This document shows positions 5,668-64,000 of a DNA stretch of 64,000 nucleotides, one piece after another (position 1 is the stretch's first letter; every line of letters starts with the position of its first letter). This DNA is from Schmidtea polychroa. Its lineage: Eukaryota. The stretch is taken from positions 21,826,001-21,890,000 of the forward strand of contig CM097885.1 in the NCBI GenBank assembly GCA_044892525.1, in the 5' to 3' direction. The notes under the pieces were generated by a model that ran no database searches, had not been told where the DNA came from, and saw only the letters and a list, made by a program, of their open reading frames with translations. The position numbers and the translations under genes are program-made.

Positions 5668-7792
5668 CCGTAATTTCCGGGTAATAAGTCGCTCCTGTGT
5701 ATAAGTCGCAATTGTAAAAAATGGCAAAAATTTTGGAAAAATTAATATATAAGTCGCTCCGTTATTTAAGTCGCACTTATACAGTAATAAGCATGCCTCT
5801 GCGGAAATGTTTACTTTGTTCGGTGGTGGTCGCCAAGTTTAATTAAAGACACTAAAGAGAAGAGGTGAGAACAAAAATCATTTAGCGCAACTATTTAATA
5901 ACGTGGAATATTTCTTTTTAATTTATAGAGAAATTATTTATATCAATAAAACGAAATGCCTAAGTTATAAATGTCGATTAATGAAGTTAAATTTATCAAT
6001 AAAAATCAGAGTCTGTAAATCCATTTAATCCATTAAAGCCTTCATCTTCAGTATCGCTTTCAAATAATTGAGCAATTTCATCTGGTACAGTCAGTTCATA
6101 GTTGTCATCATCATCATCGCTATCAGAGTCGTCGTTGTCATCATTGTCTGCCAGTAAGATTTCCGCTTTCTTGAATCCACTGGTGATAATCGTCGGATTC
6201 AATTTATCCCATGCCTCGACCACCCATTTGGCCACTTCCGCAAATTTGGCATGACGCATGCGACCTGTTGCCGTAAAGCTATGTTCACCGCTGGTCATCC
6301 ATCTTTCCCACAAACGACGCAGATGGACCTTGAAACTTCGGTTGACAGAAATATCCAGAGGCTGTAGCACCTTCGTCAGACCACCTGGTATAATGACAGG
6401 AATCGAGTTGTTGCCTTTAACTTTCGTTTTTATGTTCTCTGTGATGTGAGCTCGCATACTGTCCATTACGATCAATGCCTTTTTAGTTTTGAAGAATCCG
6501 TCAGGCCTCTTTTTGAAACATCTCTCCAACCATATGTTCATCATTTTTTCATCCATCCATCCCTTTGCGTTGGTTTGAATGATCACGTTGTTGGGAAATG
6601 CCTCTTTTGGCATGGTTTTCCTTTTGAAGATTATCATTGGAGGAAGCTTCCTTCCATCACCACAGCATGACAGCACGACCGTAAAGTGCGATTTCTCGTG
6701 GCCAGTTGTTCTTATGTTGATTGTTTTCTCACCTTTGTTATTGAGAGTTCGGCCCAGAGGAATATCGAAGGTGAGTGGAACTTCATCCATGTTGATAATA
6801 TGATCTGGAATGATTTCATATTTCGCGACTTTTGAATAAATGAATTCACGAAAATTCCGGATTTTTTCGATGTAGTCAGCAGGCAGTTGTTGACACATGG
6901 TCGTTCTTGATCTGATGCAGAGCTGCTGGCGCTTTATGAAACGAAAACACCAAGATGGTCCACCAATGAATTCAGCAATTCCCAGATCATTCGCTATTTC
7001 TTTGGCCTTAAGACGAACTTGGACGGTTGATATTCCGCGACCTTGAGCTCGCTGCTCCACAATAAACTTAGAAAGCTGATTTTCCAGTCCTGGCCATCTT
7101 GCTTTATGACCTCGATTCGCCCGCTTGGTTCTTTTTGTCAGCAACAGCGCATCTTTTGATTTTCGCCAGTCTCGAACTAGTTTTTCACTAATATTAAATC
7201 GCCGCTCAGTCGCTCGATTGCCGTTTTCCTCAGAAAATTTGATAGTTTGCAGCTTAAACTCGGCAGTGTACGATTTCCTTGTTTTGTTGGAACTCATTTT
7301 GCACTAAACTTTCGGTATATTTTAATTTGAAAAATTAAATTGTTTTGACAGGAAATCTATTACAGCGGTCTTATATACACTGCCATCTGGTGATTAAAGA
7401 TGACATTTGTTTGATGGGCTCTCAAATTTCGGATCCAGGGTCCGAAATGACCAATCAGATCGGCAGTTAAACTGACACGCCAACATGGCGGCAGTTCGCC
7501 TAGCCTAGACATCCTGTAAGCTTGGTTTACGAAATAGGCTATATGGCGTCTTAGATATATTATAATGATGGTGATGGTTTGTGATTGTATCATATTACAA
7601 AAAGGGCCTTTGATAACCACGGCATCAATTATCAGTTCATCAAAGACAGAACAGTCACAAATTGTTGATTACATTTAGATTTATTATAGAAACGGCACGT
7701 GATTAAACTTATTATATAAGTCGCTCTTTTATTTAAGTCGCAGCACCGTCAGCGTCTGAAAAAAACCGCGACTTATAGACCGTAAATTACGG
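5668..7792 (-). mobile_element. Full-length pogo-superfamily DNA transposon
   Basis: Imperfect TIRs CCGTAATTTCCGGGTAATAAGTCGC (5668) and GCGACTTATAGACCGTAAATTACGG (ends 7792), TA on both sides, and subterminal TAAGTCGC repeats. Confidence 0.9.
5996..7297 (-). CDS. pogo transposase, 433 aa, intact (Brinker-like HTH, CENP-B-type HTH, DDE_1 domain, acidic tail)
   Basis: RKSYTAEFKL N-terminus, SWCFRFIKR, and catalytic motifs NMDEVP, VMDS, LQPLD. Confidence 0.92.
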   Translation of the reverse strand: MSSNKTRKSYTAEFKLQTIKFSEENGNRATERRFNISEKLVRDWRKSKDALLLTKRTKRANRGHKARWPGLENQLSKFIVEQRAQGRGISTVQVRLKAKEIANDLGIAEFIGGPSWCFRFIKRQQLCIRSRTTMCQQLPADYIEKIRNFREFIYSKVAKYEIIPDHIINMDEVPLTFDIPLGRTLNNKGEKTINIRTTGHEKSHFTVVLSCCGDGRKLPPMIIFKRKTMPKEAFPNNVIIQTNAKGWMDEKMMNIWLERCFKKRPDGFFKTKKALIVMDSMRAHITENIKTKVKGNNSIPVIIPGGLTKVLQPLDISVNRSFKVHLRRLWERWMTSGEHSFTATGRMRHAKFAEVAKWVVEAWDKLNPTIITSGFKKAEILLADNDDNDDSDSDDDDDNYELTVPDEIAQLFESDTEDEGFNGLNGFTDSDFY

Positions 7793-8512: not shown

Positions 8513-11500
8513 TTAAAAACTTGTTTCACCTTCTTCAGTTTCTAAATCTGAATCGACAGAGGCGTTTATTCCCGCTTTACCCATTTGAAGTCTCTGATAA
8601 TCTTCAATTATATTTAAAATATTTATTTCCGCTTCATGAAATTCATCTTCTTCCATTCCTTCTTCTAAAAACCAATGCAAATATGCTCGTCTTTTATACA
8701 TGTAAGAAAAGTCTTCTTGGATTTTCACGAAACTGTTATGAATTGCCGTGGTATTGCCAACAAATGTGATGGCTTTTCTAAACCCTGCGGGGGGAATGTC
8801 GCATAAAATTGTTTTCATATTATTCGGAACCCATTCAGCAAAATATGCACTGTTTTTATTTTGAAACTGTACCACTTCACCGTCAATATCTCGAATTGAA
8901 AATTTGCCTCGGAATATTGCTGCAGCTGTTAAAAATCGCCCTCTTCTTGGGTCGCAAACTGTCATTTGATTCTGGCAATTAAAAGCATCCTCGACGATTT
9001 CATGAATTGAATATGTTTTGTAAGTTTTATTAAATCGTGAACAGAGTGGAGCATGTGAAGTAACGAAGAAATGGAATCTGGGAAATGGAACAAGATTTGT
9101 CGCTAATTTTCTTAAATCGGCATTCAATTGGCCGGTAAATCGAATGCTTGTTGTAACTCCCGACATTGCATTACTTATTAAATGATTATAATCCGCATAT
9201 AAAGGATGCTCAAGCTTCAAGATCTTATCACAAATGTTATACAATGCTTCGTTGTCCATTATGTAAGTTCCGTGGCACATAGATATTAAATTATTGCAGG
9301 TCAAAAGTGTATTATAAGGTTCAACAACTGCATCAGATATCTTAAATTAAAATTAGAAGTGGAAATATTTATATTTTAATTATAATTAAATTATTAATAT
9401 TGAAAACTAATTAATTATAATTGACGCGGTAACCAATGCCAGATTTAGTTATAGGCGACATAGGTGGTTGCTTAGAGCAGCAAGTAGGTAGTTAGTAGCC
9501 CCGGCAGCATCACTATCTGGGGTACCCCTAAAAAATTTTTTTGATTGCTGCCGAGGCTACACTATATTTTTTCACACTATAGTGAGGGTCTCTTTGACCG
9601 TATAGATTTTTGTAAGGTCCCAGGAATTTTTTTTACAATATCCGACTGTCACTAAAAAGCCAAGATTTTTTTAAGGTATATATAATTAAAGTCTATAACA
9701 CATATATATAACATATATAACACATATTTTTCTATAGAATATTTTTAAAATGCGCAAATCTAAATTAAAATCAATCAGTCTTTGAATAAACTTTTTAAAC
9801 TGGTTAATCAATTTGTCAAGACTTAAAATAAATTAATATATTAGATTTAGAATACACTTGTTAGTACTTTGAATAAATGTTCAGATCATTAAGACACATT
9901 AAATAAAATGAATAAAATTATAAGAACATTTTTTCTAATTTCACTACTGATTTTTTTCTATTAAGTATTTATTACAAAGATATTTATTATCGATGTTCTT
10001 GATGTATTTAATGATTTATAGTCTTCAAGCTTTTTGTAATAAAAAAAATGTTATTTTTGAAATAAAACTGTCGTATAAAATGATCCTTAACTACTTAACC
10101 ACTTAACTAAATATTCAATCATAATACTAAGATAATGAATTTACAATTCTTGAATCTGATACTTCAGATCATCTTCTTGTACGGATTTCTTGCAACCCAA
10201 CAAGGCACCAACAAATTTACGTAAAATAAAAATTTATCTTAAATAAAAATTAATATCAAAAAACGAAAATTTGAAAATGAAGAGTTTTGAAACTTCAGTG
10301 AAATTAAATATTATCAATTTTATATCTGACTCAAAAGTGTGCATTCTTTAATAAGAATAATGAGCTCTAGGAAATAAACTTTATTGATTAACACAGTTGA
10401 TTACCAATTTACAGCGACACGAAGAATTATCTGTTATACCGACAAATTATTACAACCCTTCTTGAGAAATGTTTTTGGTTTCAATAATCAGTAGATTTTA
10501 TCTAGTTGATTTCTTGGCTTTAACTTGAATTTATACGATAACTTTAACTTCTTAAATCGCTTTTCTTAATAACTTAATAATTCATGTTGAGTTTCGCTTT
10601 AATTTTATTTCTTCATTCTCTACAATTTCGGTTTTCTTCACTTTTCAAATTCTGTATTGTTTTCGTTTCTCTCAACTTCTTACTTCAATTTTCAACTCTG
10701 TTTTAATTCTAGCCATGTTTCCTTTTATATTTTACAATCCAGTGGCACTTATTGATATTGACTTCAATTTCAATATCTCTGCCCTCGTATTTCGTTTTGT
10801 CCTCTCCACTTCTTCTAATATCTCTTATAACTGTCGAGTTATGTAATATTTAAAAAATGCCATCTCCCAGCTTCCCCGATTATATCTTTACCTTATTCCA
10901 ACTTGGCCATCGAGATATACCATATAAATTTTGTTTTCGTTTTATTTCTAATTGTTTACTTTGTACTTTTTGATTAAAAATGACTTCGACTTATTTCATT
11001 ATTTGATTGTTTGACTTTTTCTCATTCTTTGCTACTTTTCTTGTTTTTTCTTTTCTTCTACTCGCTCCTACTTTCCAAAATTGCAAAGCAACGCACCTTT
11101 TCCATCAATCATTTTATTAATTTGATGTCCTCAACATTATTATCCAATATAAATTTAATTAACATTTTGAAAGGCCTTAAGTTACACCCCATTTGCCTGT
11201 AATATGCGATATATTCGTATCGTGCTGTATTGGCTAATCTAATTAAGTCGTATTATATAGAAATCGTGTTATAGAATGGCTGCCGCAATTTTGCACCGCT
11301 TGTTAATATCAAGAAATAATTTATTAATTTATTATTAGGCACTTTAAAGCGTTGTTCAATTCTAACTAACTTTTGGGGATGGAAAAATTGAAAACGTATT
11401 TCTAATTCTGTCTGTATATTCATCAAGTATTTTGTATAAAACCAGAGATCCTAAACCTGAACCAGTTCCACCCCCAACAGCGTGAAGAACTTGAAAACCT

Positions 11501-14735: not shown

Positions 14736-50561
<35,826 letters not shown>

Positions 50562-55913: not shown

Positions 55914-55955
<42 letters not shown>

Positions 55956-55981
55956 GGTAGTTAGTAGCCCGCTGCAACAAT

Positions 55982-56042
<61 letters not shown>

Positions 56043-56150
56043 TAATAATAATAATAATAATAATAAAATAATTAATAAATAATAATAATAACTAATAAAT
56101 AAAATAATAATTATAATAATATAATTAATAAATAAAATAATAATAATAAC

Positions 56151-56199
<49 letters not shown>

Positions 56200-56269
56200 T
56201 TAGTAATAATAAATAATATTAAATAATAATATAATTAATAAATAAAATAATAATAACAATAATAATAAC

Positions 56270-56315
<46 letters not shown>

Positions 56316-57112
56316 TAATTAAAAAATAAAATAGTAGATATAAATATTGACATTTCCTTACTGCATGCGAATAATGCTTCCTCACTGAACAATACTTGGT
56401 TGTCTAACTTGTCTTTTTCCTTTTTTTAAATTGTGTCTCTTAATCCAAGTTGTTTTTCACTTTTATAGCCTGCAATCTAATGTCACTTACAGATAATTTT
56501 TTCTTCCGCCAGCATATTCTCTTCAATATTCCCACTTCTTCTATTGTCTTTGAAAGATGTCGAGATATGCAATTTTAAGATGTGTTATTTTCCGCCTTTT
56601 TCGGTGATCCATTTTTTTATTTCAGTTAATTTGTTTTTCCTTCCTCGATTTGTGGTATTTCATTGTTTGGTTTTATTGATTTTTTGGAATTTATCCATTT
56701 ATTCCACCCTTTACTCCTGTTTCATAGAATTCTAGAACAATATAATCTCTTTTTATACATTTTTCCTCCACTCCTTTTGCTCACGTTAGTAATTATTCAA
56801 TTTTATCACTTAGATATACTCAACAAAAGCATATTCTATTGCCTCGTATTTTTACTTAGAAATTCTTGAAGCTTTAGTGCATTTTCTTCTGACATGGTTA
56901 TTCTTCTTACATATGCGCTTATTTAGATTTATTTCGACAAGATTTCTTTTTCCTTAACCATAACGACACACACACAGTTAGAACCATAAGACAACTGAAA
57001 AGTTTAAGACAAATTTTAAATTAAAATTATTAATTTTTTGACGAAATAATTTCAAAAATAGAATAAAAAATATTTGAATTCAAAAAATAGAATGAAATGT
57101 TGATGTTATATA

Positions 57113-57194
<82 letters not shown>

Positions 57195-57314
57195 GGTAGT
57201 TAGTAGCCCGCTGCAACAATTACCCCCGCCGGGGGGGGGGGGGGGGGGGGTTGTTGCACGATTTTTTTTGTTGCGCGATTTTTTTTTGTTGCAACTTTTT
57301 ATTACGCAATTGTT

Positions 57315-57860
57315 CCACACTATAGTGAGGGGGTCTCGATGGTCCTGGGATTTTCAATACAAATAAAATTTTTTCAATACAAAAACGATGGTCCTGGGAT
57401 TTTCAATACAAAAAAAAATTTTCAATACAAAAACGATGGTCCTGGGATTTTCAATACAAAAAATTTTTTTCTATACAAAAATCCGACTACCAATAAAAAA
57501 GCATGGAATTTTCACACTATAGTGAGGGGGTCTCGATGGTCCTGGGATTTTCAATACAAAAATCCGACTACCACTAAAAAAGCATGGAATTTTCACACTA
57601 TAGTGAGGGGGTCTCGATGGTCCTGGGATTTTCAATACAAAAAAAAATTTTCAATACAAAAACGATGGTCCTGGGATTTTCAATACAAAAAATTTTTTTC
57701 TATACAAAAATCCGACTACCAATAAAAAAGCATGGAATTTTCACACTATAGTGAGGGGGTCTCGATGGTCCTGGGATTTTCAATACAAAAAAAATTTTTC
57801 AATACAAAAATCCGACTACCACTAAAAAAGCCAAGGATTTTTCAGACTATAGTGAGGTGA
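57315..57860. repeat. Complex tandem array (CACACTATAGTGAGGGGGTCTCGATGGTCCTGGGATTTTCAATACAAAAA subunits)
   Basis: Directly visible higher-order repeat. Confidence 0.9.
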
Positions 57861-57904
57861 GTCTCCTTGGTCCTGAGAAATAGGTGGTCTACACTAAAAA
57901 CGTG

Positions 57905-59639
57905 GTAAATTTTTCAATTAAAGTAAATTATGGTCCTAAAAAATTAAATTACAGTAAATTATGGTCAAAATTTTTGAATTACAGTAAATTATGGGTCAAA
58001 AAATTAAATTAAAGTAAATAATGGTCCAAATTTTTCAATTAAAGTAAATAATGGTTCTAAAAAATTAAATTAAAGTAAATAAAGGTCAAAAATTTTGAAT
58101 TAGAGTAAATTATGGTCCAAATTTTTCAATTACAGTAAATAATGGTTCTAAAAATTAAATTACAGTAAATTATGGTTCTAAAAATTAAATTAAAGTAAAT
58201 TATGGTTCTAAAAATTAAATTAAAGTTAATTAAGGTCCAAATTTTAAAATTAAGTAATCAATGGTAAAAAATTTTAAATAAGTAAATTAAAGTAAGAATT
58301 TTTAAATTAAGTAATCAATGGTAAAAAATTTTAAATAAGTAAATTAAAGTAAATTAAAGTAAGATTTTAAAATTTATTAACAAAAGTTGAAATAATAGAA
58401 GGTGTTTGAGAATTGAAATTTTTTAATGAAAATTTTTATGAAATAATTTTTAAGTAATTTTTAATAGAAATTTTAATGAAATATTTTTCAATGGTAATTT
58501 TTAATGGAAATTTTTATGGAATAATTTTTTAAGTAATTTTTAATGGAAATTTTTATGAAATATTTTTCAATGATAATTTTAGATGGAAATTTTTAAGATA
58601 ATTTTTAATGAAAATTTTTATGAAATATTTTTCAAAGACAAATTTTAATAATAATTCAACAACAAACCAACAACTTAGTACCAACAACCAGTAACTTACG
58701 AACATGTATTAACAACCAGATACCTACAACTAGTTACTAACAACTAGTTACATGATACTAAGTAAATACAACCACCTAACAAGTACTAACAACCAAAAAC
58801 AAGCAACCAACCAGGTACCAGTTACCAACTACTAAGTACCTACAACCAACTAGTTACCTGATACCAAGTACTTACAACTAAATACTAACAACCAGTTACC
58901 TGATACCAAGTACATACAACCAACATCAACCAGGTACTAAGCATTAATTACCAACTACTAAGTACCTACAACCTACAACTAGATACCAAGTACTATCAAC
59001 CAAAAACAACCAACCAACTAGGTACTAGATACCAAGTACTAACAACCAACAACAACCAGGTACTAAGCATTATCAACCAACTAGGTACCAGATACCAAGT
59101 ACTAACAACCGCCAACAACCAGATACCTACAACTAGTTACTAACAACTAACTACCACCTACCAAGTACTAACAACCAGTTACCAACTACTAAGCATTAAT
59201 TATCTATAACTAGTTACTTACAACATGATACCAAGTACATACAACCAACATCAACCAGGTACTAAGCATTATCAACCAAGTACTAACAACCAAGTACAAG
59301 ATACCTAGTACTGTCAACTAGATACCAAACACTTACAACCAGATGACCACATGAAATTATTGGTTAAATATGAAAATAAGGGTTATAATTAGTTGTTTAG
59401 TAAATTATGGTGTAAAATTAAGAAATAAAGAATAATTAGGTAAATTAAAGTTAAAAATTTTAAATAAGTAAATTAAGGTTCAAAATTTAAAATTAAGTAT
59501 CCAATGGTTCAAATTTTAAATTAAAGCTAAATGAGTAAATTAAAGTAAGATTTTTAAATTTATTATCAAAAGATTGAATAACCACCAACTTTTTTGAGAA
59601 ATGTAATTTATAATGAAAATTTAAATGGAAATTTTAATG

Positions 59640-59640
<1 letters not shown>
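57905..59640. repeat. Successive minisatellites (~30-bp AGTAAATTATGGT unit; TTTTTAATGGAAA unit; A/C-rich ACCAAGTACTAACAACC unit)
   Basis: Directly visible degenerate tandem arrays. Confidence 0.85.
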
Positions 59641-59716
<76 letters not shown>

Positions 59717-62700
59717 TTAATAATAATTATAATAATAATTAAACAGTTACCAACAATCGGTTACTGATTATTTTTAACTAGGTGCTAACAAATACTTTCA
59801 ACATGATACCACGTACTAACTAACTCTCAAACAACCACATACTTACAACTAACTACTTACACTCAACTAAATATTCTTCATTGTACTTTATGAAATGCTT
59901 TTTAAATTAATTTTTTATCTATCTTCAAAAATATATTTAATTACAATCAGTAGAAAAACCTTTTCAAATTTAACAAAAAATGTTGATTTTCATCAAAAAA
60001 CCACAACTCAACCACTTTAAAACACCACGTGAAATTCAAAATAATTTAAATTACAATGAAAGACTAATGAATTCTAATTTACAAAACATTCTTCTTTTAA
60101 TTGATTACTACTGACTTATTATTGCAAAGTAAAAATCGCATTCAATAAATATTTATTGTTGATCAGTTTTATTATATATACTCTTAGTCTATCCGACAGG
60201 ATGTTTTGACCCCCTAAGGGTACAGGTCGTAAGGGTACTGGTCGTATGGGTATTAGTCGTAAGGGTACTGGTCGTAAGGGTACTGGTCGTAAAGGTACTA
60301 GTCGTAGGGGTATTGGTAACACTCAACCACAACCTACCCATTAACTAGCTACTAAGTACTAACCACTAGGTTTCAAACAACAACTACTAACAACCACCAT
60401 CAAAACCCATCGAGAAATTAACAAATATCAACCTAAAACTATATAACAACAATCAGTAAACAACACTGTACCAACTACCAAATACAAAATATTCTTCATC
60501 GCATACACTATTTTCTTATCAAAATCTAAAAAGTCAACCAACTACTTACAACCAACAACTATGTACTAACAAATTGATCTTTAAAAGCAAATACTCTTCA
60601 CTTGAAAAATTGGATGAAAAATTATTTGAACTCAAGGCATCAATAACTAGGTAAAAATTGATTAAATTATTGTAAAAAATATAAATTATTCGAAATAAAT
60701 ATCATAAAAATTTAATTAATGGACAAGAAAAAAAATTCTAATCATCCAGTAAATAAAATAAAATACTGATCATTCAAGTTGAATCAACTAAGTTAATAAA
60801 TTAATAAGATAAAATCTAGTAGATAATTGATTTAGATTGAATAAATTAATTGAAATAAAATTAATTTTAATTATTTTTGTAAAAGTAATATATGTACTCA
60901 AATTGATTGACTGATTTCTCAATATATTCAAAAAATCAGTATAAATTCATTACAAATATTGGATGAAAAATTAATTGAACTCAAGACATCAATAACTTGG
61001 TAAAAATTGATTAAATAATTGTAAAAATTTAAAATTTTCAAAATAAATGTCATAAAAATGTAATTAATGGACAAGAAAGAACTTTAAATTCTAGTCATTG
61101 ATCATTCAAGTTAATATGAATCAACTAAGATAATAAATTAATTGAAATAAAATTAATTTTAATTATTTTTTTAAAAGTAATACATGTACTCAAATTGATT
61201 GACTGATTTCTCAATATATTCAAAAAATCAGTATAAATTCATTACAATTATCAAAGTCAGCAATCTACAATAAAAAAAACTTTTAAAACAAATGCGGGGA
61301 TGTTTTAAGTGAATAATTAATCAAAATCGGTGGAATATAAGTAGAAAATCGGGGGGTGAGGGTTATAAGTGAATAACTAATGGAAAATCGGTGGAAAATA
61401 TAGGGATTAAATAGTGGAGAATAATAGTGAATATAAGTGAGGAGGATATATAATTTAAGCTAGTATATTACATAACAAGCCGTGACTAGTTTATTACATA
61501 ACAAGCCGCGACTATTTTATTACATAACAAGCTGTGATTGGTATTTTACCAACATTTTACTATTACTATTACTAGGTAAAATTTTTTTTTCAATAATTTT
61601 CTAAGAATATTTACTCATTGATGAACTTTTAAAACCTAAGCTAAGAAACCAACTTTATCAATGACTTTAAATTTACTTGATAATTATTGTAGGATATACA
61701 GAAATTTAGTTTGCTGTTATTGCTTGAAAATGATTGGCTGAATCGATGAAGAATTATGATCAACCAATATATATCATCTCTAGTATTTGATGGTAAATAT
61801 TTGTAGAAAATATTGGTTTTTGATCTTTTAGTGAACTCTTACTACATAGCTACTAAATTATTTCAATGGAAGAATATTTGGTGTCTATAACAATTAAGTC
61901 ATATTTTTGAAGTTCTTTAAAGATTTTAAGACTGAATTGAATTAAAGGAGGATTCAAGTGGGTAGAATTGAAGGATATATTCGGTTAGATGTTTAAAGGG
62001 GTAGAAATATTTGGTGAGAGATCGGTTAAGATGGGATATTGTTGGTTAAATTTAATGAGGGATGGGTTAAGATGGGAATATATGATCTTTTGAGGGGATA
62101 TAGTCGGTTAGATTTAATGAGAGATCGGATAAGGTAGGAATATATCATTGTAAGGGAGATATAGTCGATTGAATTTAATGAAGGATGGGTTAAGATGGGA
62201 ATATAGTCGGTTAAATTTAATGAGACATGGGTTAAGATGGGAATATATGATTTTTTTAATGGTGATGTTGGTAAAATATCATTGTTTTAAGGGAAATGTC
62301 AATTAGTCAGTTATGTATCAATAATAATTATATTGTTTTATTAGGTTGTGATTAATTCATTGTATATTAATTTAGATTTATGTTTTAGAACAATGTTCTA
62401 TTAAGTAGGGATAATGATCGATTTACTTGGTTTTGACGATGAAAACTTTACAGATAAATGGGATTGATATCAACTTTAAATTATTTTTATCTTTATTTAG
62501 ACGGACAACGACAAAAGTTGAGAAATATGGACTTAAAACATTGACTAAATAAAATTGATCTTTATTGGAAGAAATCTTGATTTTAATTAGTAATTAAATC
62601 GGTTGAATATTGGTAAAAATGATCATTTGAAGAAATATATTTTATTGAATGGATAAATTTAATCTTTCAATGGGACCTAGTCAGTTATGTTGTAGTAATA

Positions 62701-64000
62701 TTTATTTAAAATATCGAGTACAGTGATTAACAAAAAATTAATTATAACCAGTTTTATCATTAGATTTTATAAATTATTTAGGGTTAATGATTTTACATGT
62801 TTTATAGGGAAATATTCGTGATAATACGAATTAAAGTTAGAATTATAGTCATTTAAAGGGGATTTTAAGGAATCTTATTAGTCTGAGGGGAATATATGAT
62901 CCTTTACGGGTACTTATCATTAAAATATCAATCTTTAAATATTGATATATTTAGGGGAAATGATGCTTTTTAGATGATTTTAATGAATTATTTGTAATAA
63001 TATGAATTAAGGGTTGAAATATAGTCATTTAAGGGATTTTAAGGAATCTTATTAGTTTGAGGAGAATATATGATCTTTAACACGTATTTATCATTAAAAT
63101 ACCAATCTTTAAATATTGATATATTTAGGGGGAAAATGATGCTTTTTAGATGATTTTATTGGAGAATTCACTTGGATATACCAATTATTGTCATTTGAAT
63201 GAATTTACTGGTTTGTTAGATGTTATCATTAGTTATCTAGTCTCTTTTGGAATTTAATGATAAATATTTTTATTGTAGATTGCTGACTTTGATAATTGTA
63301 ATGAATTTATACTGATTTTTTGAATATATTGAGAAATCAGTCAATCAATTTGAGTACATGTATTACTTTTACAAAAATAATTAAAATTAATTTTATTTCA
63401 ATTAATTTATTCAATCTAAATCAATTATCTACTAGATTTTATCTTATTAATTTATTAACTTAGTTGATTCAACTTGAATGATCAGTATTTTATTTTATTT
63501 ACTGGATGATTAGAATTTTTTTTCTTGTCCATTAATTAAATTTTTATGATATTTATTTCGAATAATTTATATTTTTTACAATAATTTAATCAATTTTTAC
63601 CTAGTTATTGATGCCTTGAGTTCAAATAATTTTTCATCCAATTTTTCAAGTGAAGAGTATTTGCTTTTAAAGATCAATTTGTTAGTACATAGTTGTTGGT
63701 TGTAAGTAGTTGGTTGACTTTTTAGATTTTGATAAGAAAATAGTGTATGCGATGAAGAATATTTTGTATTTGGTAGTTGGTACAGTGTTGTTTACTGATT
63801 GTTGTTATATAGTTTTAGGTTGATATTTGTTAATTTCTCGATGGGTTTTGATGGTGGTTGTTAGTAGTTGTTGTTTGAAACCTAGTGGTTAGTACTTAGT
63901 AGCTAGTTAATGGGTAGGTTGTGGTTGAGTGTTACCAATACCCCTACGACTAGTACCTTTACGACCAGTACCCTTACGACCAGTACCCTTACGACTAATA

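What the first reader, a model, noticed from the sequence alone, without database searches (positions are those of the whole stretch)
60190..60320. Cis-motif conserved between two otherwise dissimilar Polinton-type TIRs
Seen: TATCCGACAGGATGTTTTGACCCCCTAAGGGTA (60190-60222) matches TATCCGACAAAATATTTTGTCCCCCTATGGGTA (18452-18484; inverted copy in the right TIR) at 28 of 33 positions. Both lie beside AAGGGTACTGGTC repeats in the inner part of the TIR. The first element's version contains the perfect palindrome GACAAAATATTTTGTC. Inference: a selected packaging, replication or promoter signal, or a small RNA, that would let the non-coding element use a helper.
Basis: partly seen in the sequence, partly recalled or inferred. 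Interest (0 to 1): 0.7.

Follow-up and report, generated by a model that had tools for sequence, protein, structure and literature searches.

The report
Shared repeat module in Polinton arms
A gene-carrying virus-like transposon and a gene-less mirror-image element share one short GC-rich DNA module in the inner part of their end repeats; it may be a protein-binding signal, but neither a function nor selection on it is shown.

Summary
The match is real (28 of 33) and larger than reported. It is a module made of a 33-bp core, a variable number of 15-bp GGGTA units (2 in the autonomous Polinton E1, 7 in the gene-less element E2) and a short cap, 57 of 74 identical in register. The rest of the two arms aligns no better than shuffles. 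In the window it occurs only in these arms, facing the same way, 2-3 kb from the ends. Sequencing-run contigs show it inside diverged E2-type arms, in a second species label, and with a third, E1-like continuation. The palindrome is not what is conserved: it holds 4 of the 5 differences. RNA structure, Rfam and protein searches gave no support. A weak codon-like pattern (P 0.02-0.07) remains unexplained. Differences are spread evenly along the module, so selection is not shown. Best reading: a DNA protein-binding array shared among co-resident Polinton-type families (0.42). Main rival: a neutral inherited or swapped relic (0.33). No genome-wide test was possible. The scan earlier noted gene-less palindromic Polinton derivatives in this genome, but not this module.

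The parts
16492..36440 (.). E1: autonomous Polinton/Maverick with about 2.1-2.3-kb TIRs, AGTAGA ends and a 6-bp target-site duplication ATTATC
18443..18516 (+). Shared module, left TIR of E1: core 18452-18484, two 15-bp GGGTA units (18480, 18495), cap ending TCAACAA
18419..18449 (+). Upstream duplicate of the two 15-bp units in E1 (24 bp repeated at 60-bp distance), next to a (TTA)n tract
18456..18471 (.). Perfect 16-bp palindrome in E1; not kept in E2 (12 of 16 letters, 4 of 8 pairs)
34203..34299 (-). Inverted copy of the module and its duplicate in the right TIR of E1; begins about 45 bp after the stop of the 166-aa ORF 33658-34158
18708..18723 (+). Extra copy of the module cap just inside the left TIR, after the second (TTA)n tract
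57191..64000 (.). E2: gene-less element starting AGTAGG in a (TA)n tract; left arm 57191-61276 built of tandem arrays, centre 61277-63266, right arm from 63267 running off the window
60181..60329 (+). Shared module in E2's left arm: core 60190-60222, seven 15-bp units (60218-60322), cap
63922..64000 (-). Inverted copy of the cap and 15-bp units in E2's right arm; the core would lie about 60 bp beyond the window end (inferred)
60119..60322 (-). 67-codon stop-to-stop frame without ATG across the E2 module; the E1/E2 core differences are synonymous or conservative in it; no protein relatives found

Best explanation
The motif is the fixed head of a GC-rich DNA module (core, n x 15-bp GGGTA units, cap) that is a standing part of the inner TIR in several Polinton-type families of this genome. 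Shown: anatomy, homology, same orientation, variable unit number, presence in diverged arms. Inferred: it acts as double-stranded DNA, as an array of sites for one protein, with GGGTA as anchor and the 15-bp register kept while the spacers drift, much as foldback transposon ends use a short motif plus 12-15-bp repeats. Each element holds two inward-facing copies, so the gene-less E2 would recruit the same host or helper-made factor as E1. If it is functional, my split of roles is about 40% replication or mobilisation aid, 40% transcription boundary or promoter element (in E1 it follows the stops of both outward-read terminal genes), 20% packaging.
For: A single sharp island in otherwise unalignable arms (score 147 vs null max 63.8). 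GC 0.48-0.50 against 0.14-0.30 in the flanking stretches measured. All 13 GGGTA-N10-GGGTA matches in the window lie in these modules, 0.98 expected. GGGTA positions differ from the majority in 1 of 50 cells, spacer positions in 23 of 100 (partly circular, since units are phased on GGGTA and are not independent). Unit number varies (2 vs 7) while head and cap (18 of 22) persist. A contig 16% diverged runs without gaps across flank and core (X8 record 26, 60112-60258). A contig of a second species label covers the module (X10 record 12, 60162-60282). Three X8 contigs leave E2 at 60222 and go on with E1-like spacers, a third variant. One copy in each arm, same way round, and none in the other 55 kb has at most P 0.0007 under a simple scattered-insertion model (post hoc).
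Against: No binding, expression or genome-wide data. E1/E2 differences are evenly spread (29 runs, P 0.79), and columns with G/C are less conserved than A/T-only columns (28 of 42 vs 29 of 32), as neutral decay would give. One X1 contig (depth 1070, against millions summed in those bins) skips 60148-60215, so copies lacking most of the core may exist. Only 40 of 374 variant rows were shown; none falls in the 58-mer, but 0.74 were expected, so this says nothing. Three distant pPolB loci (34-36% identity) lack the motif (best 19-20 of 33; no unit pair in 4 of 4 loci). The ATAAAC box seen before several E1 genes occurs in E1's core but is changed in E2's.
Confidence: 0.42

Rival explanations
1. 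Neutral homologous relic or swapped patch. E1 and E2 arms share ancestry or exchanged this stretch by recombination or template switching. The surrounding tandem arrays turned over faster, and copying between the two arms keeps the patch mirrored without any function.
For: Even spread of differences and no better conservation of G/C columns. The arms are mosaics of fast-changing tandem arrays. In E1 the module is bounded by (TTA)n tracts and locally duplicated. A third variant exists. A rare contig lacks the core.
Against: It is the only island in 2.5 x 4.1 kb of arm and sits in the same region and orientation in both. The GGGTA anchors and 15-bp register persist across different spacers.
Confidence: 0.33
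2. Captured end of a Mutator/foldback-type DNA transposon (short terminal motif plus 15-bp subterminal repeats) that entered an ancestral arm and was carried along.
For: The layout resembles Muta1/Muta5 (9 copies of 12- or 15-bp repeats behind a terminal motif, with variable number in derivatives) and Tm1 (13-15-bp repeats). A 7-mer equal to Tm1 motif A2 lies at 60333 in E2.
Against: No 8-9-bp target-site duplication around the E2 module, and only repeat- or microsatellite-derived ones around E1's. No free copy in the window. The A2-like 7-mer is absent from E1's module. No long ORF between E2's two copies.
Confidence: 0.1
3. A short coding exon or its remnant. On the outward strand both copies read P(I/L)GGQNILSD(K/R), preceded by proline-rich 5-residue repeats.
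For: 4 of 6 changed codons in the 37-bp core are synonymous and the other two are I/L and K/R. Best-of-six-frame P is 0.068 (synonymous count) and 0.018 (BLOSUM62); for the 58-mer it is 0.14 and 0.040. Of three listed family variants inside the frame, two are synonymous and one is I/L. E1's pPolB ends in ILSD and shares a 12-mer with the core.
Against: No ATG. E1 has an in-frame stop just upstream, and by my reading the X8 variant has stops in its units. Only 3 of 12 changes among E2's units are at third positions. No relatives: searches found none, and none of the 150 listed hits (of 163) carries the core peptide.
Confidence: 0.08
4. A small structured RNA or hairpin signal built on the palindrome.
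For: Three of the four palindrome changes would leave G-U pairs on the + strand.
Against: Folding z-scores -0.71 to +2.46 for 8 of 8 folds. No two-sided change in either strand's consensus fold of the two sequences. No Rfam match at gathering score, and only far sub-threshold hits at relaxed E-values.
Confidence: 0.04
5. An independent small repeat scattered through the genome that hit both arms separately.
For: It could not be excluded genome-wide. In runs X7 and X8 the bin over the module has the highest summed depth (inflated by the internal repeats, and not a copy number).
Against: No copy in about 55 kb outside the arms; P at most 0.0007. No TSD or subterminal inverted repeats. No loose end at the module's start among the 24 shown (1873 not shown).
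Confidence: 0.03

Closest known systems
Polinton/Maverick TIRs and their gene-less derivatives
   Same: E1 has the core genes, long TIRs, AG-starting ends and a 6-bp TSD (criteria from PMC8097293 and PMC10748475). E2 has a similar end and long arms.
   Different: The passages read describe conserved 6-bp end motifs and, within nematodes, conserved TIRs, but no inner-TIR module shared between families with unalignable arms. TIRs here (over 2 and 4 kb) exceed the 46-1447 and 100-1500 bp ranges given there.
Type-2 foldback Mutator ends (Aedes Muta1/Muta5, Meloidogyne Tm1)
   Same: A short unique motif next to a variable number of 12-15-bp tandem units. In Muta1 the units bind transposase, and more units raise excision (PMC5499845 passages).
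   Different: Here the array is 2-3 kb from the element's end, has no 8-9-bp TSD, and its palindrome is not kept.
Adenovirus packaging domain
   Same: A cis region near the genome end of a related virus group, usable by gene-less helper-dependent genomes (PMC3097180).
   Different: Viability drops severely when it lies 655 nt or more from the ITR; this module lies 1961-3000 bp in.
rDNA terminator arrays (Sal box / TTF1, Reb1 family)
   Same: Repeated, orientation-dependent protein sites that stop transcription and replication forks (PMC11358750). The outward strand of E2's units shares CGACCAG with the Sal box as printed there.
   Different: A 7-letter likeness only, absent from most E1 units. 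No evidence of Pol I or of such a factor in this host.

Membership tests
Polinton/Maverick (E1) | Protein-primed family-B polymerase | tested here: inconclusive
   1368-aa ORF with family-B motifs recognised from own knowledge. Pfam gave only a weak endonuclease VII hit. Three unnamed viral-contig relatives at 34-36%.
Polinton/Maverick (E1) | Retroviral-type integrase | tested here: met
   rve E 1.4e-5 (below the curated cut-off) plus a chromodomain hit; the ORF holds a microsatellite tract.
Polinton/Maverick (E1) | Packaging ATPase, adenain-like protease, capsid protein | tested here: met
   Pox_A32 E 3.6e-7 and Peptidase_C5 E 3.2e-6, both above cut-off. The 407-aa ORF scores 0.98 to clusters in which 15-24% of members carry DJR-like_dom (a lead).
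Polinton/Maverick (E1) | TIRs, AG-type end motif and 6-bp TSD | tested here: met
   Ends at 16492 and 36440 with ATTATC on both sides. The ends read AGTAGA, a variant of the (AGT)2 and (AG)3 motifs.
Non-autonomous Polinton (E2) | AG-type end and long inverted arms without genes | tested here: met
   End at 57191; arms 99.7% alike over 709 bp; no long ORF and no tblastn hit to 13 E1 proteins.
Non-autonomous Polinton (E2) | 6-bp TSD and a matching right end | not testable with these tools
   The right end lies beyond the window, and no genome is held.
Type-2 foldback Mutator end | Short motif plus variable number of 12-15-bp subterminal repeats | tested here: met
   2 vs 7 units of 15 bp behind a fixed core.
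Type-2 foldback Mutator end | 8-9-bp TSD at the element boundary | tested here: not met
   None around the E2 module; only repeat- or microsatellite-derived matches around E1's.
Helentron-type non-autonomous element (HINE/DINE-1) | 12-15-bp subterminal inverted repeats at both ends | tested here: not met
   No inverted 10-12-mer pair across either module; criteria from PMC4067079.
Helentron-type non-autonomous element (HINE/DINE-1) | Palindrome near the 3' end | tested here: inconclusive
   Perfect in E1, half broken in E2.
Adenovirus-type packaging domain | Lies within about 650 nt of the genome end | tested here: not met
   1961, 2174 and 3000 bp from the ends.
Adenovirus-type packaging domain | Bound by the viral packaging proteins | not testable with these tools
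   Needs binding assays.
Structured non-coding RNA | Stable fold with compensatory changes, or an Rfam match | tested here: not met
   only two sequences were available for covariation.

The most novel reading that the evidence does not exclude
The module is a family-wide cis signal of this Polinton group, read by one factor, that lets gene-less palindromic elements be copied or packaged by autonomous Polintons. That would be a satellite-helper system and an internal Polinton cis element beyond the terminal bases.
Probability: 0.2. Interest if true: 0.75.

Novelty: new variant of a known kind. Interest (0 to 1): 0.38.

Why it matters
The Polinton passages I read describe the genes and the terminal bases and name no internal cis signal. 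A short island kept between an autonomous element and a very abundant gene-less element with unrelated arms is where such a signal would show. It gives a 75-150-bp target for footprinting and for a comparative test. If it proves neutral, it still records sequence exchange or common descent between co-resident families.

Tried and rejected
No whole genome is held, so no genome-wide motif search. Motif and unit patterns: viral contigs 0 hits; prokaryote genomes 0; metagenomes 1 hit, at the end of a 501-aa ORF in a bacterial-looking contig (transposase-like by recall, not tested), without the units, taken as chance. A codon-degenerate pattern gave 14 viral loci, which are 2 distinct sequences without module context. 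Capsid queries found no relatives in viral contigs; the polymerase query gave 3 distant loci without the motif. Sequencing runs: no RNA holder listed; X8 is only guessed to be RNA, so expression is untested. Run X10 had no depth in 4 of 30 bins, all in E2's centre; this is not used as evidence. Protein searches for the outward frame were empty or hit only low-complexity 5-residue repeats. The cluster look-up returned no accessions. The bacterial promoter scan is not relevant to this host. A likeness to a yeast Reb1 site was a recalled lead that I could not confirm in print, so it is dropped. The ATAAAC box as the shared signal was rejected because E2 changes it. Literature: 10 searches. No listing or passage seen describes this module. 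The library lacks most subscription papers and Repbase, and I opened no supplements, where TIR sequences of Muta5, Tm1 or Polintons could bear on the comparison.

Full report
Observation. The two 33-mers match at 28 positions, an inverted copy lies at 34267, and nothing else in the window reaches 22 of 33. A degenerate pattern finds these three places and none in 100 shuffles. The ungapped match extends to 58 bp at 82.8%, E 1.3e-10. With microsatellites masked, the two arms align at this place with score 147 against a null maximum of 63.8; the best alignment outside the module scores 52.8. The claim of one shared block in otherwise dissimilar arms therefore holds.

Hosts of the motif. E1 (16492-36440) is a Polinton: AGTAGA ends, a 6-bp duplication, protease, ATPase, integrase and TBP-like hits, a probable capsid protein and a long polymerase ORF. 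E2 starts at 57191 with AGTAGG in a (TA)n tract. Its left arm reaches 61276 and pairs with a right arm from 63267; it is built of tandem arrays and has no long ORF or hit to E1 proteins. Its right end is outside the window. Earlier notes of the scan describe many gene-less palindromic Polinton derivatives in this genome (AI notes, used as leads). None of the look-ups returned this module (searches were empty; the notes listed in 34, 37 and 40 concern other features). One note hints at a planarian host; I did not test it.

Anatomy. The shared unit is larger than the 33-mer: a core, then 15-bp units beginning GGGTA (two in E1, seven in E2), then a cap that matches at 18 of 22 when E1's second unit is set against E2's last. 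In this register 57 of 74 positions agree. E1 also has a duplicate of its two units just upstream. All 13 GGGTA-N10-GGGTA matches in the window belong to these modules. The module is about 50% GC among flanks of 14-30%. It faces inward in every arm and lies 1961, 2174 and 3000 bp from the ends. In E1 it follows the stops of both outward-read terminal genes.

The palindrome is the least conserved part: 12 of 16 letters, holding four of the five differences, with only 4 of 8 Watson-Crick pairs left in E2. Folding energies are no better than shuffles in 8 of 8 folds, consensus folds of the two sequences show no two-sided change, and Rfam gives nothing credible.

Evidence from outside the window. 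No genome is held. Collection scans found no true copy. Twenty of 24 listed runs hold some of E2's 59770-62900; I laid 4 of them. In X1, 80,482 contigs lie on the stretch, so the family is very abundant and varied. A contig with 23 differences in 147 bases crosses flank and core without gaps. A contig from a second species label covers 60162-60282. Three X8 contigs leave E2 at 60222 and continue with E1-like spacers, a third variant. One X1 contig skips 60148-60215. Only 40 of 374 variant rows and 24 of 1897 loose ends were shown, so conservation within the family could not be measured (0.74 rows expected in the 58-mer).

Is it selected? GGGTA positions are steadier than spacers across ten units (1 of 50 vs 23 of 100), but that comparison is partly circular. 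The E1/E2 differences are not clustered (P 0.79), and G/C columns are not better kept. Independent insertion of a scattered repeat into both arms, same way round, with none in the other 55 kb, has P at most 0.0007 under a simple model, and there is no TSD or subterminal inverted repeat. So the module belongs to the arms, by descent or exchange; whether it is kept by selection is open.

An unexplained pattern. On the outward strand both copies read P(I/L)GGQNILSD(K/R). Four of six changed codons are synonymous and two conservative (best-of-six P 0.068 and 0.018; 0.14 and 0.040 for the 58-mer), and two of three listed family variants in the frame are synonymous. Against coding: no ATG, an in-frame stop just upstream in E1, only 3 of 12 third-position changes among E2's units, and no protein relatives. 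I give it 0.08.

Mechanism. I commit to a double-stranded DNA binding array (0.42): one factor would bind the GGGTA anchors, with the core as a neighbouring site, and the gene-less element would keep the module because it needs the same factor as the helper. Only the anatomy is shown; binding and role are inferred. The nearest worked-out analogue is the foldback Mutator end, where 12-bp units behind a short motif bind transposase and more units raise excision (PMC5499845 and PMC5225508, passages; Tm1, PMC3169594, passages and one section), but the TSD test fails, so I do not file it there. An adenovirus-type packaging role fits poorly by distance (PMC3097180, passages). A terminator or boundary role like the Sal box (PMC11358750, passages) fits E1's gene layout but rests on a 7-letter likeness. 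The neutral relic or swapped patch (0.33) is nearly as likely.

Papers seen: passages of 10.1101/2025.02.07.637071, PMC12366685, PMC4067079, PMC8502044, PMC10748475, and passages plus one section of PMC8097293, besides those above; other papers only as search listings. No supplements were opened. None of the ten searches showed a description of such a module, within a library that lacks most subscription papers.

Verdict. New variant of a known kind; interest 0.38.

Noticed in passing
window 30792-31229 (+): E1 encodes a 145-aa TBP-like protein (Pfam TBP E 7.6e-14), head to head with the ATPase. TATAAAC or ATAAAC lies before several E1 genes. Earlier notes of the scan report both on other copies.
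   Followed up: partly
window 18968-18985: The pPolB ORF ends in DIDDIILSD, which resembles a SUMO-interaction motif (recalled, not tested). Its last codons share an exact 12-mer with E1's core.
   Followed up: partly
window 16598-18082 and 34620-36340: E1's arms carry many TCAAGGTCA / TGAAGGCCA words in the terminal part and in the 212/234-bp repeats; they resemble nuclear-receptor half sites (recalled).
   Followed up: no
window 9483-9700: A third AGTAGG end, related to E2's first 650 bp (19 identical terminal bases; 73% over 110 bp), lies between two exon-like pieces of a divergent tubulin gene; no right end was found.
   Followed up: partly
window 55952-57190: A second copy of E2's first 31 bases followed by (AAT)n. 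Both ends follow a similar flank plus (TA)n, and 56532-56578 resembles 10806-10853.
   Followed up: partly
window 28368-29459 (-): E1's integrase ORF contains an (AAT)n tract near 29020-29070 that reads as poly-isoleucine, either an intron or an insertion.
   Followed up: no
window 23228-24150: Inside E1, upstream of pPolB: three copies of a ~50-bp unit separated by (TTA)n, and a 21-bp tandem array of about 22 copies.
   Followed up: no
window 61277-63266: E2's centre is strongly G-skewed, with 26-, 42/62- and 174-bp repeats and no long ORF.
   Followed up: no
window 42329-43282 (+) and 5996-7297 (-): A Penelope-like RT/GIY-YIG fragment between (AAT)n tracts, and a pogo-type DDE_1 transposase ORF.
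   Followed up: no
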